A stretch of 64,000 nt of DNA from a virus (Duplodnaviria > Caudoviricetes). The stretch spans positions 36,669 through 100,668 of the IMG/VR virus record IMGVR_UViG_3300043473_000069; one strand, written 5' to 3'. The notes beneath the pieces were generated by a model, which saw only the letters and a list, made by a program, of their open reading frames with translations, was not told where the DNA came from and ran no database searches. Each line of letters begins with the position of its first letter. The first letter of the stretch is position 1. The position numbers were made by a program, and so were the translations under genes. Shown piece after piece: positions 33,220 through 38,664 of this stretch.

Positions 33220-34656
33220 TCAGACCCGCTTGCGCCTCGCCACGACGGCCAGCGTCGCTCCAGCAGCGAGCACGAGGGCTGCCGTGGCGGGGATGAGCGG
33301 GTCGTTGCCGGTGGGAGGCAGGCCGGGCTTGGGAGGCGTGCCAGGCCGTGTGGTGGGCGCTCCCGGAGGCGCAGGTGGGTTCTCCGGGTTGGCGCAGGCG
33401 CTCGACTCGGGCGGGTAGGTGATGAACGCCGTGGCCGTGGGGTTCACCGTGTAGGTGAGTCGAATGCCGTCACGGAGATATTCGTCAGAGGGATCACGTA
33501 CCCAAAGACCAGCATCCGTGAGTATCCATCCAGGGACGTCATCGATGCTCCCGTCAGCATTGACGGTGGTGCCAGGATACAGAAGCTCGACATGACCACC
33601 GGGCTGGTAGACGAGGGGCTGGGTGGAGACGACGTTGCCGTTGATGTCACTCATCGTCAACGTACCGGTCTGCCCAGCCAGCGAGGGGAAGCCAGGTGTG
33701 GCGAAGTCGATGACGATGGTCGGGACCTCAGCCCGGCAGACCGTCGCCGCCCCGCTGAACTGGAACGTCGCCGGGAGGGTCGTCGTGGTTCCTGGCAGGG
33801 TGGTTGTAGTGGTGCCAGAGATCGTCGTCGTCGTCACGCCAGTGGATGTCGTGGTAGAGCCAGGCATCGTCGTCGTCGGCCCAGTCGTAGATGTGGGGCT
33901 GGTCGTCGTCGTCGTTGTCGATGGCGTGCTCGTTGTGGTCGTGGTGGTCCCACAGTTTGGTGTCAACTCCACCGTGGCGGTCGCTGTCTGACCCTGGATC
34001 CGGTAGGTCAGCGTCAGCGGTGACTGGAGGCTGGCGGGCCAGGGGATCGTGATGCTCCCCCCGGAGCGGTACACGAGCGGGCCGTACGACGTGCCATCCG
34101 AGAAGTCGAGGATGCCTGACTGGCCGTTGAGGGCGGCGTTGACCGGGAAGTTGATCTGGATGCCGGGCAGGAAGTCCGAGGTGCAGACAGCGAAGACGTT
34201 GATCCCGAACGGCGTGATGACCGGGCCGGTGGTTGTGGTGCCCGCCTGCGTGGTAGTCGTTGTCCCACCACCGCCCGTCGTCGTGGTCGTCGCCAGCGTT
34301 GTCGTCGTCTGCGATGGGGCGGTGGTCGTCGTCTGGTGAGGTGGCTTGGTGGTCGTCGTGGCTGCCGCAGTGGTCGTCGTCTCGTGAGGCGGCTTCATCG
34401 TCGTCGTCGGATGAGGCTTCTCCGTCGTCGTCGGGTGCTCGCAGCCGTGACCACCTCCACCGGATCTGTAGCCATCCGGACACTCGGTCGTCGTTGGGTG
34501 CTCGTACGGCTTCGTCGTTGTCGTTTCGTGCGGCTTGGCCGTGGTCGTTGTGTTACCGCCGTATCCACCGTCGTCGGGAGCATCGTTCCCGGTGGCTGCA
34601 GCCTGGGCGGCACACCCTGCTAGCAGAACAGCGAGTAATACGAGTGCTCGGCGCAT
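33220..34656 (-). CDS. Thr-rich cell-surface protein with an LPXTG anchor
   Basis: N-terminal signal/lipobox LAGC; poly-Thr linkers; two related beta domains; LPPTG, TM helix and RRKR. Confidence 0.8.
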   Translation of the reverse strand: MRRALVLLAVLLAGCAAQAAATGNDAPDDGGYGGNTTTTAKPHETTTTKPYEHPTTTECPDGYRSGGGGHGCEHPTTTEKPHPTTTMKPPHETTTTAAATTTTKPPHQTTTTAPSQTTTTLATTTTTGGGGTTTTTQAGTTTTGPVITPFGINVFAVCTSDFLPGIQINFPVNAALNGQSGILDFSDGTSYGPLVYRSGGSITIPWPASLQSPLTLTYRIQGQTATATVELTPNCGTTTTTTSTPSTTTTTTSPTSTTGPTTTMPGSTTTSTGVTTTTISGTTTTTLPGTTTTLPATFQFSGAATVCRAEVPTIVIDFATPGFPSLAGQTGTLTMSDINGNVVSTQPLVYQPGGHVELLYPGTTVNADGSIDDVPGWILTDAGLWVRDPSDEYLRDGIRLTYTVNPTATAFITYPPESSACANPENPPAPPGAPTTRPGTPPKPGLPPTGNDPLIPATAALVLAAGATLAVVARRKRV

Positions 34657-34678: not shown

Positions 34679-34708
34679 AGAGCCCCCGCTCCGAAGAACG
34701 GGGGCTCT
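34679..34708 (-). terminator. Hairpin downstream of Ro60
   Basis: AGAGCCCCCG...CGGGGGCTCT, a 10-bp inverted repeat. Confidence 0.6.
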
Positions 34709-34736: not shown

Positions 34737-36329
34737 TCAGACCCTACCCGCCGAGAAGTCAGCGATCAGGGCCGGGGCTGCGTTGTCGAAGCCCACGACG
34801 TCCAGCATTCCAGCGTCGCTGGGGTCAGCGATGCTGAACTGGTTGGAGCACATGCCGACCACGACCAGCTTGGCCGGGATGCCGGAGAGCTTGCGGTACT
34901 CCTGCAGCGCCTGCACCGGGTGCGACCGTCCGGCGTACGTCTCCGAGTCCGTGTAGATCACGAAGGTGTCCACGCTGACACCGTTCTTGATCGCCCACAG
35001 CATGGGGAGAGCGCAGTCCGTCCGGTCGAACGGCAGACGGCGGGTCATCTCCACCGTCTGGGCCAGGGACATGCCCTGATGGAGGGCCAGGGGGATGAAG
35101 CCCCCCGAGAACGCCATCACAGCCGTCTGCGGCTCGGTCGCCAGCGTCACCAGCGCCATCGCACTCGACGCCTCACGGGCCGAGAGGAAGGTGCCAGCGA
35201 TCTGGCTGCCGTCCATGGAGCCCGACACGTCGAGCGCCACGAGCGTCCGCTTGTTGGCGGGCTCGACGTTGGCGAACGCCATGCCGAACGTCTTGTCCAG
35301 CGAGGCCAGCACCTTGCCCGAGGGCTGCCAGGTGAGGCTCCCCTTGAAGCCACGCCCGTGGGCGTAGGTCACCGCAGCGGTGAGGACGTTGAGCGGGTGG
35401 ATCCGGCTGCCCTTCACCATGCGCTCCGCCACCAGTCGCTCGGCCACCATGGCCTCGGCCCCCGACATCGGCTTGATGGTGCCGTTGGCGGTGAGCCGAC
35501 CGAGGTTCCGCACGAGTGCGCCCATACCGAGGTTCGGGAGCATGGCGTGCCAGACCTTGGGGTCAGCCAGCATCTCGGACGGCACCACCTCCCAGGGGAG
35601 GCGGTACTGCTCGATCAACTGGACGGCCTCGTCCACCGTGGTGCCGTTGTCGTGGAGCTTGTCCACGGCGCCGAGGAACGTGCCCTCGACTCCCGGCACC
35701 TTGTTGACGGCCCAGCCCAGCGCCTTGGCCTTGGACGAGCCCACGGTGGGGCGGGGCTTGGACAGGCGCAGGAGGTCACGGTGCGACCAGCCCTCACGGC
35801 TCTGGTACTTCGCCACCTGGAGGCACAGGTCATCCAGGTCACGATTCATGTACCAGTCACCGATGGCCGTCCGCAGCGAGCGGCCCCAGCCCCGGAACTG
35901 CTCGACGTAGGAGGCGAACAGGAAGAGGTGGGTACCGGTGCGGCAGACCAGCGGCAGTGCATCGAGCGCCGCCTGACGCACGGTCAGGTCCTCGGCCCCG
36001 GCGCACGCAGCGAGGGCGAACATCGTCGGGTGCTGCTTGGGCGCCCGTCCGTTGACGGAGATGTCCACGATCGTCTGCACGACACGGTCACCGTCCTTGG
36101 CGATGCAGCGCAGGAGCGCAGCGGCGGCGTCCTTGGTGAGCTTCTGCTCCGACGTGTAGTACGTCCCGCCCTCCGTGCCCAGCACGAGGAAGCGGTTGAG
36201 CAGCGTCCAGTCGTCCACCTTGAACGACCAGCCACCGGCAGCGTTGGGCGCCTGGTCGAGGATGCGACCGGGCAGCGGCTCCGTCTGCGGCGTGGCTCGG
36301 GTGGAAACGTTGTGATACGGCGTGGGCAT
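34737..36329 (-). CDS. rsr: Ro60/TROVE-domain RNA-binding protein (Rsr orthologue)
   Basis: NAAGG..RFLVLGTEGGTYY, VCRTGTHLF, KYQSREGWSHRDLLRL, ALVRNL, RIHP, vWA MIDAS DVSGSM, TDCALPM, TDSET and IADP..MLDVVGFD. The ATG at 36329 has GGAGG 7 nt upstream. Confidence 0.97.
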   Translation of the reverse strand: MPTPYHNVSTRATPQTEPLPGRILDQAPNAAGGWSFKVDDWTLLNRFLVLGTEGGTYYTSEQKLTKDAAAALLRCIAKDGDRVVQTIVDISVNGRAPKQHPTMFALAACAGAEDLTVRQAALDALPLVCRTGTHLFLFASYVEQFRGWGRSLRTAIGDWYMNRDLDDLCLQVAKYQSREGWSHRDLLRLSKPRPTVGSSKAKALGWAVNKVPGVEGTFLGAVDKLHDNGTTVDEAVQLIEQYRLPWEVVPSEMLADPKVWHAMLPNLGMGALVRNLGRLTANGTIKPMSGAEAMVAERLVAERMVKGSRIHPLNVLTAAVTYAHGRGFKGSLTWQPSGKVLASLDKTFGMAFANVEPANKRTLVALDVSGSMDGSQIAGTFLSAREASSAMALVTLATEPQTAVMAFSGGFIPLALHQGMSLAQTVEMTRRLPFDRTDCALPMLWAIKNGVSVDTFVIYTDSETYAGRSHPVQALQEYRKLSGIPAKLVVVGMCSNQFSIADPSDAGMLDVVGFDNAAPALIADFSAGRV

Positions 36330-36336
36330 GGTGGGT

Positions 36337-36424
36337 CCTCCGGTCAAGTGAGTGACGGCCCTACAGGCGGGGCTTTGAACCCCGGACCTCTCCCAAAGAG
36401 AACAGGCCGTCTCCGGCCCGAAGG
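36337..36424 (-). ncRNA. Y RNA element 5, overlapping the Ro60 RBS
   Basis: CCUUCGG/CCGGAGG stem and Ro helix; T-like arm CGGGG-UUCAAAG-CCCCG. Confidence 0.82.
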
Positions 36425-36439
36425 TGGGCCAGACTGAGC

Positions 36440-36562
36440 GCTGCGGGCAAGTGAGTGCCAGCCGGTATCCCCAGCCGAAGCTGGGGTCCCGGTTCGGTAG
36501 ATCCGGGTTGGCGGATTCGAAACCGCCTGGTACCTGGTAACCGGATGACTCCGGCCCGCAGC
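36440..36562 (-). ncRNA. Y RNA element 4
   Basis: GCUGCGGG/CCCGCAGC stem and Ro helix; T-like arm GGCGG-UUUCGAAU-CCGCC; two further hairpins, one with a cUUCGg loop. Confidence 0.85.
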
Positions 36563-36574
36563 TATGAGTTGTGT

Positions 36575-36683
36575 GTTACGGACAAGTTGTGCGACCCGAG
36601 TCCCCAACCAACAGGGGTTCGGGAGCCTTGCGGCCCCCGGTAGGAATCGAACCAACGATGAACGGACCACTCCGGCCCGTAAC
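36575..36683 (-). ncRNA. Y RNA element 3, YrlA-type
   Basis: GUUACGG/CCGUAAC stem with GCCGGAG/ACUUG; T loop UUCGAUU; CGGGGGCC-GCAA-GGCUCCCG; D-like arm CCCC-UGUUGGUU-GGGG. Confidence 0.87.
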
Positions 36684-36691
36684 GAGTAGGT

Positions 36692-36818
36692 GCTGAGGTC
36701 AAGTGATGCTGCTCGGGGTTTGCCGCTCTACCAACTGAGCTAACGGGTTGCCCCGTACGGGATTCGAACCCGTGACCTGCCCTTTACAAGAGGTAACCGA
36801 ACTGCTCCGGCCCTCAGC
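36692..36818 (-). ncRNA. Y RNA element 2, YrlA-type permuted tRNA mimic
   Basis: GCUGAGG/CCUCAGC terminal stem and Ro helix; T arm ACGGG-UUCGAAU-CCCGU; GCAA-capped acceptor stem; D arm GCUC-AGUUGGUA-GAGC. Confidence 0.92.
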
Positions 36819-36833
36819 GAGATCTGTTGTCAA

Positions 36834-36908
36834 TGCTCCGGTCAAGTGAGTGCCAGCGGGGTGGATGTGTTTCAGATACAGGTAACCCGCTAGCTCCGGC
36901 CCGGAGCA
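36834..36908 (-). ncRNA. Y RNA-like element 1 (short, no T/D arms)
   Basis: UGCUCCGG-GCCGGAG...CACUCACUUGA-CCGGAGCA: terminal stem plus Ro60-binding helix; starts just after a sigma70-type promoter. Confidence 0.8.
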
Positions 36909-36914
36909 CTGCAC

Positions 36915-36943
36915 AAGATACGGGATCTTTGAGCGAAGCGCAA
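36915..36943 (-). promoter_or_regulatory. Sigma70-type promoter for the Y RNA-Ro60 operon
   Basis: TTGCGC-17 bp-TATCTT on the minus strand, 6 nt before element 1. Confidence 0.65.
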
Positions 36944-36947
36944 CCCC

Positions 36948-36969
36948 AATCGGCCACATGTGGCCGATT
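36948..36969. promoter_or_regulatory. Perfect 22-bp palindrome next to the -35 element
   Basis: AATCGGCCACATGTGGCCGATT. Confidence 0.55.
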
Positions 36970-37429
36970 ACTGAGGACCCGGTGGCAGCGCCCTCGGCTG
37001 CGTCTTCCGGCGCAGCTTCAACTTCGCTTCGATCTCAACGAGGCAACGCTCGATGACCCCGACTCGATCGGGGATGCCCTGTAGGGCGGTATGGATCGAT
37101 GCGAGTAGCGCCTCACGATCAGCCAGCCTGTCACTCAGGGCGCCGGTCTGAGCCAGGAGTTCTTCGTGCCGGTCGGAGGCAGCCTTCAAGGCGATGGTGG
37201 AGCGGGCGATCTCGCCTCGCCAGATGACGGTGGCGGCGGCGTGCTCGGCGTACTTGGTCTGCTGCGCCTCCAACTCCACCAGGCGAGCTTCCACCTGCTC
37301 CAGCCTGGTCAAGGGGGTGACCACCGGGTCCATCTCGTGGTCGTCCCACGGACAGCACACCTCTCCGGTGTCGGTCAGCTTCTCCGTGCAATCAGCGAGA
37401 CTCATTCCGCAGACCGTGCAGTAACTCAA
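36968..37429 (-). CDS. Coiled-coil hypothetical protein with N-terminal Cys motifs
   Basis: CTVC...CC motifs followed by heptad repeats. Confidence 0.5.
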   Translation of the reverse strand: MSYCTVCGMSLADCTEKLTDTGEVCCPWDDHEMDPVVTPLTRLEQVEARLVELEAQQTKYAEHAAATVIWRGEIARSTIALKAASDRHEELLAQTGALSDRLADREALLASIHTALQGIPDRVGVIERCLVEIEAKLKLRRKTQPRALPPGPQ

Positions 37430-37564: not shown

Positions 37565-37957
37565 CTAGCGCCACGCTGCCAGTCCCCGTGCGTTGTACTC
37601 CGTGGCGGCGCACTGCATCTGCAGTTCGACGTTGCCCTTGATGGAGTCGATCGTGGCTCCGCACAGGTTGAGCCAGTAGCCCTTCATGCCTCCGATGAAG
37701 TTCAGCCCGAACAGCCCGCCCCCGTTGTCGTCGTGATCCACGACCCACGAGTGAGGGTTGCAGCCCGACTCTCGCCAGGCGATGCGGCTGAACGTGTCCC
37801 ACGGCAGGCCAGCAGCGGCAGCTTCCTCAGCGAAGCTGCCACAGTCACCTGCCGTCCACTCGGACACCACTGCAGCGGGCTCGGCCACTGGCGTGCACTC
37901 GGGAGCGCACTGGGTGATGAGGAGTGCTGGGCTCAGCGCCAGCAGTCGCAGCCTCAT
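37565..37957 (-). CDS. Secreted SLT-like lytic transglycosylase
   Basis: Signal peptide MRLRLLALSP; IAWRESGCNP..GGGLFGLN..GLAAW; ATGA overlap with the Rpf gene. Confidence 0.75.
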   Translation of the reverse strand: MRLRLLALSPALLITQCAPECTPVAEPAAVVSEWTAGDCGSFAEEAAAAGLPWDTFSRIAWRESGCNPHSWVVDHDDNGGGLFGLNFIGGMKGYWLNLCGATIDSIKGNVELQMQCAATEYNARGLAAWR

Positions 37958-38664
37958 CCGACCGGGCACTGCCAGGCACGGGCAGCCCCTACCTCGGCGG
38001 CGATCCGCTCGGCCACGATGATCTGCTGACCACGGCTGGCCTGTCCTGCGGTTGGTGCGAACTCCTGACCACCGAACTGGCGCCATGCGCTATTCATGAT
38101 CATGAGTCCACCGCTGAACGTGCCGTAGCTGTTGGTCACGTTGCCGTGGCCCCACTGCTGTCCGCTCTCGCACTGAGCGACACGGTCCCAGTTGACGCCG
38201 CTGGCGCCACCGCCACCGCCTCCACTGTTGCTGGACCTGTTGCTGCCACCGCCGCCGTTGGACCTGCCAGATGTGGCAGGTTGCGGCGCCGGGTCTGGTG
38301 ACGGGTCCTCGGCCACGCCCGTGTAGGCGCTGACCATGTCGGCACCGAGGGCCGTGGCCGTCTCGGGTCCGACCTCACCGTCAGCGACGATGCCCGCCGC
38401 TTGTTGGAAGGCCGTGACGGCCCTCTCAGTCACTGGACCGAACCAACCGTCGATGGGACCGGTGTCGATCCCCTTGGCGGTGAGCACGGTCTGGAGGCAG
38501 AGCACATCGGCACTGTCTCGGATGCCGTTCTCCAGCCACGCACCGATGGCGCATGGCGTGGCGACGGCGGTCGGCGGCACCTCTTGGGCGCTCACGAGGG
38601 AGGGGACTCCTGCACAGAGTGCGGCAACAGCCGCCCCTGTGAGCAGTCGTCTCGTTCGTCTCAT
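37954..38664 (-). CDS. Resuscitation-promoting factor (Rpf) with a peptidoglycan-binding domain
   Basis: Signal peptide; DGWFGPVTERAVTAFQ..ADGEVGPET (PG_binding_1); WDRVAQCESG..GGL..W..GG..ASRGQQIIVAER (Rpf domain); AAGGAG RBS. Confidence 0.88.
   Translation of the reverse strand: MRRTRRLLTGAAVAALCAGVPSLVSAQEVPPTAVATPCAIGAWLENGIRDSADVLCLQTVLTAKGIDTGPIDGWFGPVTERAVTAFQQAAGIVADGEVGPETATALGADMVSAYTGVAEDPSPDPAPQPATSGRSNGGGGSNRSSNSGGGGGGASGVNWDRVAQCESGQQWGHGNVTNSYGTFSGGLMIMNSAWRQFGGQEFAPTAGQASRGQQIIVAERIAAEVGAARAWQCPVG

What the first reader, a model, noticed from the sequence alone, without database searches (positions are those of the whole stretch)
34737..36969. Phage Ro60 operon headed by a tandem array of five diversified Y RNAs
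Seen: an unambiguous Ro60/TROVE gene is preceded on the same strand by five closely spaced structured units at 36834-36908, 36692-36818, 36575-36683, 36440-36562 and 36337-36424. Each has its own 7-8 bp closing stem, with different sequences but preserved pairing. Each also has an invariant 5' GGGCCGGAG and a 3' ACUUG, with a different internal domain. One TTGCGC-17-TATCTT promoter sits in front. Known: this 5'/3' pair matches the Ro60-binding helix of Y RNAs (GGUCCGA/CUUG in animals, GNCGAAG-like/CUUG in bacteria). Well-studied loci such as Salmonella rsr-yrlBA-rtcBA and Deinococcus Rsr have about two Y RNAs, and phage-borne Ro60/YrlA has been reported. Inference: this is a modular one-protein, many-adaptor-RNA cassette producing five distinct RNPs, plausibly for counter-defence or for redirecting host RNA decay. 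No RtcB or RtcA is visible in the window.
Basis: partly seen in the sequence, partly recalled or inferred. Interest (0 to 1): 0.95.

Follow-up and report, generated by a model that had tools for sequence, protein, structure and literature searches.

The report
Phage Ro60 operon, five Y RNAs
A soil phage carries the ring-shaped RNA-binding protein Ro60 behind a row of five different small "Y RNA" genes. The identification holds, but rows of three to ten such RNAs turn out to be fairly common next to Ro60 genes, so this is a good example of an under-described pattern, not a one-off.

Summary
Five units on the minus strand (36337-36908) each have a 7-9 bp closing helix, the same 5' nonamer and 3' pentamer, and a different interior. 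They lie between a promoter-like site and a canonical Ro60 gene (34737-36329) that ends at a hairpin. Rfam's Y-RNA-type models hit all five. A covariance model built here hits only these five places in the 100.7-kb phage record.

The closing and upper helices covary strongly. Four close relatives carry 4-6 units, with orthologues of the first, second and last units in the same positions.

The novelty claim weakens. With that model, 62 other viral Ro60 loci carry 0-7 units (median 2; five loci with six or seven). Thirteen of 80 bacterial loci carry 5-10. Cultured phages carry up to 8 (Rhodococcus phage Trina), none annotated as Y RNAs. Papers I could read describe one to three per phage. This scan has also noted arrays beside Ro60-like genes on other DNA.

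One trait is specific to this clade. The Ro60 ribosome-binding site is the 3' strand of the last unit's closing helix. This holds in all five loci of the clade, and none of 45 other loci shows it.

No data on transcripts or binding were available.

The parts
36948..36969 (-). Perfect 9-bp hairpin overlapping the stop codon of the upstream ORF (36968-37429). It is terminator-like and separates the operon from the gene before it.
   Evidence: Read from sequence. Not called by the T-tract-based scan.
36915..36943 (-). Promoter-like site, TTGCGC - 17 nt - TATCTT, ending 6 nt before unit 1.
   Evidence: The same TTGC-N19-TAnnTT layout sits 4-7 nt before unit 1 in L006-L009. It fails the E. coli consensus scan.
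36834..36908 (-). Unit 1: a short Y RNA, one long bulged hairpin with no tRNA-like part (YrlB/Yrn2-like form).
   Evidence: RF01656 43 bits, above its gathering score. R2 67.7 bits. Fold z-score -3.4. Orthologue is first in L006-L009.
36692..36818 (-). Unit 2: YrlA-type Y RNA. It has the Ro helix, a hairpin with a 7-nt anticodon-like loop, a T arm, a capped 5-bp acceptor-like stem and a D arm.
   Evidence: RF02553 40.4 bits over model positions 24-84, below the gathering score of 69. ARAGORN miscalls it tRNA-Thr(tgt) at 36749-36823. It is 127/127 identical to L006 unit 2 while the rsr genes are 87.5% identical.
36575..36683 (-). Unit 3: YrlA-like, with a T arm, a 7-bp acceptor-like stem capped by a tetraloop, and a D-like arm.
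   Evidence: RF02553 full-length match, 27.7 bits, E 0.0011. R2 36.7 bits. Fold. Best counterpart is L007 unit 4. Absent from L006.
36440..36562 (-). Unit 4: Ro helix plus a three-hairpin interior (a T-arm-like hairpin, a 5-bp hairpin, and a 7-bp stem with a UUCG loop).
   Evidence: RF01656 41.1 bits, above its gathering score. R2 56.3 bits. Fold z-score -5.8.
36337..36424 (-). Unit 5: Ro helix plus a small hairpin and a T-arm-like hairpin. Its last five bases are the rsr Shine-Dalgarno.
   Evidence: R2 37.9 bits. RF01656 E 0.009. Alone, its fold is no better than shuffles (z-score -1.05). Support comes from the model and from orthologues.
36337..36341 (-). GGAGG Shine-Dalgarno, 7 nt before the ATG, paired in unit 5's closing helix with the unit's 5' end.
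   Evidence: The same arrangement is found in L006-L009. It is absent from 45 other loci, most with a visible separate purine-rich site downstream of the last unit.
34737..36329 (-). rsr/Ro60 gene, 530 aa: TROVE ring plus vWA domain with an intact DxSxS metal site.
   Evidence: Pfam. PDB human, Xenopus and Deinococcus Ro60 at E 1e-120 to 1e-111, full length. PHROG 850. Invariant D367, S369 and S371.
34679..34708 (-). GC-rich 10-bp hairpin 29 nt after the rsr stop codon. Terminator-like, without a U tract.
   Evidence: Read from sequence. Not called by the scan.

Best explanation
This is a self-contained phage transcription unit: promoter, five Y RNA genes, rsr (Ro60), terminator hairpin.

Each unit carries the same Ro60-binding module. 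That module is a closing helix, the conserved bulged helix formed by the 5' nonamer and the 3' ACUUG, an upper stem, and a GGUUAYC motif. Each unit has a different effector interior: one plain hairpin and four interiors with T-arm or tRNA-like parts.

The likely mechanism follows the M. smegmatis precedent. One precursor is cut into separate Y RNAs. Each binds the phage Ro60 ring on its outer face and couples it to a different partner, such as a host exoribonuclease like PNPase or a tRNA-handling enzyme.

The last unit doubles as the rsr leader, because its closing helix sequesters the ribosome-binding site. Ro60 binding beside that helix, or cutting at the unit's 3' end, would lower rsr translation, which would be negative feedback.

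Shown: sequence, structure, covariation, synteny, conservation. Inferred: transcription, processing, binding, partners, feedback.
For: Protein: a canonical full-length Ro60.

RNA module:
- All five units hit the Y-RNA-derived model RF01656, two above the gathering score. Units 2 and 3 hit YrlA RF02553.
- On 12 short units, the proposed helices are 87.7% paired and 13 of 20 pairs change on both sides. No shuffle of 500 reaches this, and slid controls give 33-52% paired.
- On 123 units from phages and many bacterial phyla, 92.5% are paired, with a covariation score of 0.73 against 0.22 for shuffles. This alignment was fitted to the model.

Specificity: model R2 finds only the five units in the 100.7-kb record. 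Of 363 hits in 144 sources, 359 lie on the rsr strand.

Operon: a conserved promoter-like site lies before unit 1, spacers are 8-15 nt, and hairpins lie before and after.

Selection: units 1, 2 and the last unit have positional orthologues in relatives at 55-86% protein identity. Unit 2 is 100% identical to its L006 orthologue, while the rsr genes are 87.5% identical at the DNA level.

Precedents:
- M. smegmatis YrlA and YrlB lie upstream of rsr and are processed from one precursor (PMC4201824).
- Thermus phage phiLo Ro60 binds two upstream Yrls and forms complexes with host PNPase in vitro (PMC12135203).

SD sequestration is conserved in all five loci of the clade.
Against: There is no transcript, processing or binding evidence for this phage. 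No unit reaches the YrlA gathering score. Unit 5 alone folds no better than shuffled sequence. The promoter is weak by the E. coli consensus. The host and the partner proteins are unknown. The feedback idea rests only on geometry and on conservation in five related loci. The covariation counts on A4 come from a model-fitted alignment of hits chosen by a model that contains the motifs.
Confidence: 0.75

Rival explanations
1. The five units are not released as separate RNAs. They form one long structured 5' leader of the rsr mRNA, whose repeated Ro60-binding helices serve only as operator sites for cooperative autoregulation or mRNA stabilisation.
For: Tight 8-15-nt spacing, a single promoter-like site and no internal terminators. 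The ribosome-binding site lies inside unit 5's helix.
Against: Units 2 and 3 carry YrlA-type tRNA-like domains, and these accumulate as free Ro60-bound RNAs in Salmonella and M. smegmatis (PMC4201824). In other loci the same units lie downstream of rsr (L054, L060) or are interleaved with tRNA genes (Trina, Blueeyedbeauty), where they cannot be an rsr leader. The distinct interiors are conserved by position, which a plain operator does not need.
Confidence: 0.12
2. The array is a set of tRNA genes or decayed tRNA genes (ARAGORN calls tRNA-Thr), unrelated to Ro60.
For: ARAGORN call at 36749-36823. Perfect T arm and D arm in unit 2. The equivalent unit is annotated as tRNA-Thr in prophiGD43A-5.
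Against: The Rfam tRNA model gives 19.4 bits against a cut-off of 29. The acceptor-like stem is sealed by a loop, so there is no free 3' end. Unit 1 has no tRNA part. All units share a helix that is absent from tRNAs, and that helix tracks the rsr gene and its strand across phyla.
Confidence: 0.03
3. The Y RNAs are real and Ro60-bound, but they mainly serve as tRNA-shaped decoys. They would soak up host tRNA-cleaving or tRNA-modifying defence enzymes during infection, with Ro60 only protecting them from decay.
For: Four of five interiors mimic tRNA parts. Unit 2 includes an anticodon-like 7-nt loop. The setting is a phage that has no tRNA genes of its own. Interiors turn over quickly among relatives.
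Against: Only unit 2 has an anticodon-like loop in this window. Unit 1 has no tRNA part. Large arrays also occur in bacterial chromosomes, where an anti-defence role is less obvious. There is no experimental precedent.
Confidence: 0.1

Closest known systems
Mycobacterium smegmatis rsr locus with YrlA and YrlB (Chen et al. 2014, PMC4201824)
   Same: Y RNAs lie directly upstream of rsr on the same strand and are processed from one precursor. One has a tRNA-like domain (T arm, capped acceptor-like stem, D arm) and one is simpler. The host lineage is actinobacterial in type.
   Different: Two RNAs there against five here. The window's Ro-binding helix keeps both strands in the animal and Deinococcus style, whereas only the 5' strand is recognisable in M. 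smegmatis. Here the rsr ribosome-binding site is built into the last Y RNA.
Thermus phage phiLo Ro60 with Yrl1 and Yrl2 (PMC12135203)
   Same: A phage-encoded Ro60 with Y-RNA-like genes upstream. Binding, and a ternary complex with host PNPase, were shown in vitro.
   Different: Two RNAs. The host phylum is different. No tRNA-like modules are reported in the passages I read.
Deinococcus radiodurans Rsr with Yrn1/Yrn2 and the RYPER complex with PNPase
   Same: Several small RNAs upstream of rsr (four seen, two established). The helix motif on both strands resembles that of animal Y RNAs.
   Different: It is chromosomal and UV-induced. The tRNA-like part is arranged differently.
Animal Y RNAs and nematode stem-bulge RNAs (Rfam RF01656)
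   Same: The same lower-helix layout and a UUAUC-type motif after the upper stem. Two units exceed the RF01656 gathering score.
   Different: Eukaryotic genes transcribed by RNA polymerase III, not clustered with Ro60. The match reflects the shared module, not membership.

Membership tests
Ro60 / Rsr (TROVE + vWA) protein | TROVE HEAT-repeat ring domain | tested here: met
   PF05731 at 3.3e-37, 129 bits against a cut-off of 23. Full-length matches to solved Ro60 structures at E 1e-120 to 1e-111.
Ro60 / Rsr (TROVE + vWA) protein | C-terminal vWA domain with a DxSxS metal site | tested here: met
   PF25045 at 1.1e-64. D367, S369 and S371 are invariant in 37 homologues.
Y RNA (Ro60-bound small RNA) | [quoted passage not shown] | tested here: met
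   Helix 1 is 98% paired, with 7 of 11 pairs changed on both sides.
Y RNA (Ro60-bound small RNA) | Encoded near Ro60 on the same strand (bacteria and phages) | tested here: met
   All five units lie within 600 nt upstream of rsr. 359 of 363 model hits in 144 sources lie on the rsr strand.
Y RNA (Ro60-bound small RNA) | Accumulates as a discrete small RNA that is bound and stabilised by Ro60 | not testable with these tools
   The only RNA runs that share words with the stretch hold pieces of relatives' rsr genes.
YrlA (Rfam RF02553) | Reaches the family's gathering score (69 bits) | tested here: not met
   Best matches are 40.4 bits (unit 2, tRNA-like core only) and 27.7 bits (unit 3, full length).
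YrlA (Rfam RF02553) | tRNA-like domain in the order T arm, capped acceptor-like stem, D arm | tested here: met
   Units 2 and 3. Units 4 and 5 have only a T-arm-like hairpin plus other hairpins.
tRNA | Cloverleaf with an open acceptor stem; RF00005 at 29 bits or more | tested here: not met
   19.4 bits. The ARAGORN call borrows the Ro helix as its acceptor and D arms.

The most novel reading that the evidence does not exclude
The operon is a programmable panel. One Ro60 ring is loaded with five interchangeable adaptor RNAs, among them a complete permuted tRNA look-alike with an anticodon loop. The phage uses the panel to decoy or redirect host tRNA-targeting defences and RNA decay, and the last adaptor throttles Ro60 synthesis by hiding its ribosome-binding site.
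Probability: 0.12. Interest if true: 0.8.

Novelty: new variant of a known kind. Interest (0 to 1): 0.5.

Why it matters
Ro60/Y RNA particles are conserved from bacteria to humans, where Ro60 is a lupus and Sjogren's autoantigen. Their bacterial and phage roles are still poorly understood.

This locus, and the survey made around it, suggest that the usual picture of one or two Y RNAs per Ro60 gene understates reality. Many phages and bacteria encode 3-10 diversified Y RNAs that share one Ro60 handle, and these go unannotated or are mislabelled as tRNAs or small ORFs in GenBank phages.

The survey also points to cultured systems where function could be tested: Rhodococcus phage Trina, Streptomyces phage Blueeyedbeauty and Bxz1-type mycobacteriophages. 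The clade-specific burial of the rsr ribosome-binding site in a Y RNA helix gives a simple, testable feedback hypothesis.

Tried and rejected
1. Expression evidence. Two soil metatranscriptome runs share 11-15% of the stretch's words. When laid on the region, their contigs are 90-96% alike and cover only parts of rsr, so they come from relatives and may be DNA carry-over. They say nothing about the array.
3. The single metagenome scan gave only four short, distant loci.
4. A motif-plus-stem Python scanner was specific (152 hits on the rsr strand against 15 on the other) but missed divergent units. The covariance models superseded it.
5. Model R1, built from short units only, under-counted long units. 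R2 was used for the tallies.
6. A terminator-like hairpin inside unit 5 (36403-36420) is not conserved in L006 and was set aside as chance.
7. The Annual Review (PMC10870794) and the Microbiology Spectrum review on bacterial Y RNAs, and the supplementary tables of Chen et al. 2014, are not held. I therefore cannot exclude that larger arrays are mentioned there.
8. Neither RtcB nor any real tRNA gene is found in the phage record.
Full report
WHAT IS THERE. The window is part of a 100,668-b IMG/VR virus record (65% G+C, CheckV completeness 85%). The record encodes a tail sheath, a baseplate wedge, DNA polymerase, helicases and a primase. A leftward-transcribed block lies between the replication genes. 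In it, an ORF of 530 aa (34737-36329, minus strand) is a canonical Ro60. It matches Pfam TROVE and the Ro60 vWA domain far above their cut-offs. It aligns over its full length with human, Xenopus and Deinococcus Ro60 structures at E 1e-120 to 1e-111. Its DxSxS metal site is intact.

Five of the six copies of the 9-nt 5' motif in the window fall within these 500 nt. Each unit ends in ACUUG followed by the complement of its own 5' end. Spacers are 8-15 nt. A perfect hairpin closes the preceding gene (36948-36969). A TTGCGC-17-TATCTT site ends 6 nt before unit 1. A GC-rich hairpin follows the rsr stop codon (34679-34708).

ARE THEY Y RNAs? Rfam's nematode stem-bulge RNA model (RF01656) describes Y RNA homologues. 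It scores units 1 and 4 above its gathering threshold and hits all five at E below 0.02 in a local search. The YrlA model (RF02553) matches the tRNA-like core of unit 2 (40 bits) and the whole of unit 3 (28 bits), both below its threshold of 69. ARAGORN's only 'tRNA' in the whole record lies inside unit 2, and the Rfam tRNA model rejects it.

I aligned 12 short units from the window and relatives and wrote down the closing helix, the bulged Ro helix and the upper stem.
- 87.7% of cells pair and 13 of 20 pairs change on both sides.
- No shuffle of 500 reaches these values, and sliding the partner drops pairing to 33-52%.

A covariance model from that alignment (R1), and a broader one from 123 of its hits (R2), gave these results.
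- In the whole phage record they find exactly these five places.
- Elsewhere, R2 gives 159 of 159 hits on the rsr strand in 64 viral sources, and 200 of 204 in 80 bacterial loci.
- On the 123-unit alignment, 92.5% of cells pair, with a covariation score of 0.73 against 0.22 for shuffles. That alignment was fitted to the model.
- The consensus module is the 5' nonamer, a variable 7-9-bp upper stem, GGUUAYC (93-99% conserved, though by ascertainment), and the 3' ACU(U/C)G.

By my own recollection of human Y1, Y4 and Y5, the same layout occurs in animal Y RNAs. That would explain the RF01656 hits.

ANATOMY OF THE FIVE.
- Unit 1 is a plain bulged hairpin.
- Unit 2 has a hairpin with a 7-nt anticodon-like loop, a perfect T arm, a capped 5-bp acceptor-like stem and a D arm.
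- Unit 3 has a T arm, a 7-bp capped stem and a D-like arm.
- Unit 4 has a T-arm-like hairpin, a 5-bp hairpin and a 7-bp stem with a UUCG loop.
- Unit 5 has a small hairpin and a T-arm-like hairpin.

Interiors are 29-59% alike within the window, so this is not a recent duplication.

RELATIVES. Four IMG/VR contigs encode the closest Ro60 proteins available (86, 65, 59 and 55% identity). They carry 4, 6, 6 and 6 units.
- The first unit (short form), the second (YrlA type, with the same closing-helix sequence in all five loci) and the last are positional orthologues.
- The middle cassettes vary.
- Unit 2 is 127/127 identical between the window and L006, although the rsr genes are 87.5% identical.
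- The promoter-like site keeps its position in all five loci.

THE RIBOSOME-BINDING SITE. In all five loci of this clade, the last unit ends in GGAGG, 5-8 nt before the rsr ATG. These bases form the 3' strand of the closing helix. In the 45 other loci checked this arrangement is absent, and most have a visible separate purine-rich site downstream of the last unit. I noted this before reading the scan's notes. It implies one of two things: translation happens from the unprocessed precursor with the site masked, or cutting at the unit's 3' end strips the mRNA of its site. Either way, Y RNA folding or Ro60 binding is coupled to Ro60 synthesis. This is inference.

HOW UNUSUAL IS FIVE? R2 tallies at E up to 0.01 are as follows.
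- Among 62 other viral loci: 0 units in 6 loci, 1 in 10, 2 in 19, 3 in 14, 4 in 8, 6 in 4 and 7 in 1. Some loci are cut by contig ends, so these are lower bounds.
- Among 80 bacterial loci from many phyla, 13 have 5-10 units. Examples are a Chloroflexota MAG with 10 and a Verrucomicrobiota MAG with 7.
- In cultured phages, with filters off: ET08 has 3, one overlapping the annotated gp219. Cashline, Sparky and Spilled have 2 each. Blueeyedbeauty has 5. Rhodococcus phage Trina has 8, two overlapping a 'tRNA-OTHER' pseudogene. M. abscessus prophage prophiGD43A-5 has 6, one annotated as tRNA-Thr.

Five is therefore in the upper tenth of viral loci but is not exceptional.

LITERATURE. The papers I could read report the following.
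- One YrlA per phage, and at least two Y RNAs per bacterium, with four small RNAs upstream of Deinococcus rsr (PMC4201824).
- Two Yrls in Thermus phage phiLo (PMC12135203).
- Three abundant candidate RNAs near an Rsr-like gene in a Listeria phage (PMC12282133).

I found no description of arrays of five or more. This scan has already noted RNA arrays beside Ro60-like genes in many other phages.

MECHANISM. The best-supported reading is one precursor, processed into Ro60-bound Y RNAs with different effector modules. The precedents are M. smegmatis (single precursor; RNase P cutting and CCA addition on a 7-bp capped stem) and phiLo (ternary complexes with host PNPase). Unit 5 would serve at least partly as a cis-acting leader. 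The partners, and the benefit to the phage, are unknown. No RtcB is present.

VERDICT. The identification is supported. The claim that the array is exceptional is not supported. It is a clear canonical example of an under-described, widespread multi-Y-RNA arrangement, with one clade-specific regulatory twist that is worth testing.

Noticed in passing
window 36692-36818 (-): Unit 2 reads as a complete tRNA turned inside out. The two bases after the D arm, together with the three bases after GGUUA, form a 5-bp stem under a 7-nt loop CUUGUAA (anticodon UGU), followed by a 5-nt variable loop and the T arm. Orthologues show other triplets at that place: UCC-like in L008, CAG-like in L009, and UGU again in prophiGD43A-5.
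   Followed up: partly
L175 2104-2451; L180 984-2412; L003 2363-3231: GenBank phage annotations miss these RNAs or mislabel them. ET08 gp219 (a 57-aa ORF), Trina's 'tRNA-OTHER' pseudogene and prophiGD43A-5's 'tRNA-Thr(tgt)' each overlap model hits.
   Followed up: partly
L054 5316-6037; L060 4865-5179; L132 5199-6545: In some loci the array lies downstream of rsr instead of upstream. One Chloroflexota MAG has about nine units downstream plus one upstream.
   Followed up: no
L106 5118-7337 (-): The only four opposite-strand model hits form their own cluster, downstream of and convergent with rsr, in a Chloroflexia MAG.
   Followed up: no
window 33220-34656 (-): The gene after the rsr terminator encodes a 478-aa protein with a lipoprotein-type signal (a hydrophobic stretch ending in Cys). 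It has no Pfam or PHROG match.
   Followed up: no
window 37954-38664 (-): An endolysin-like gene (peptidoglycan-binding domain plus transglycosylase-like domain) lies in the same leftward block, about 1 kb upstream of the Y RNA promoter.
   Followed up: no
L003 2340-3240: The units of the mycobacterial prophage use a different 5' motif (ACAGGA-type) and a 3' CACACG, yet keep the GGUUAYC motif. R2 scores them weakly (17-27 bits), so R2 tallies undercount this lineage.
   Followed up: partly
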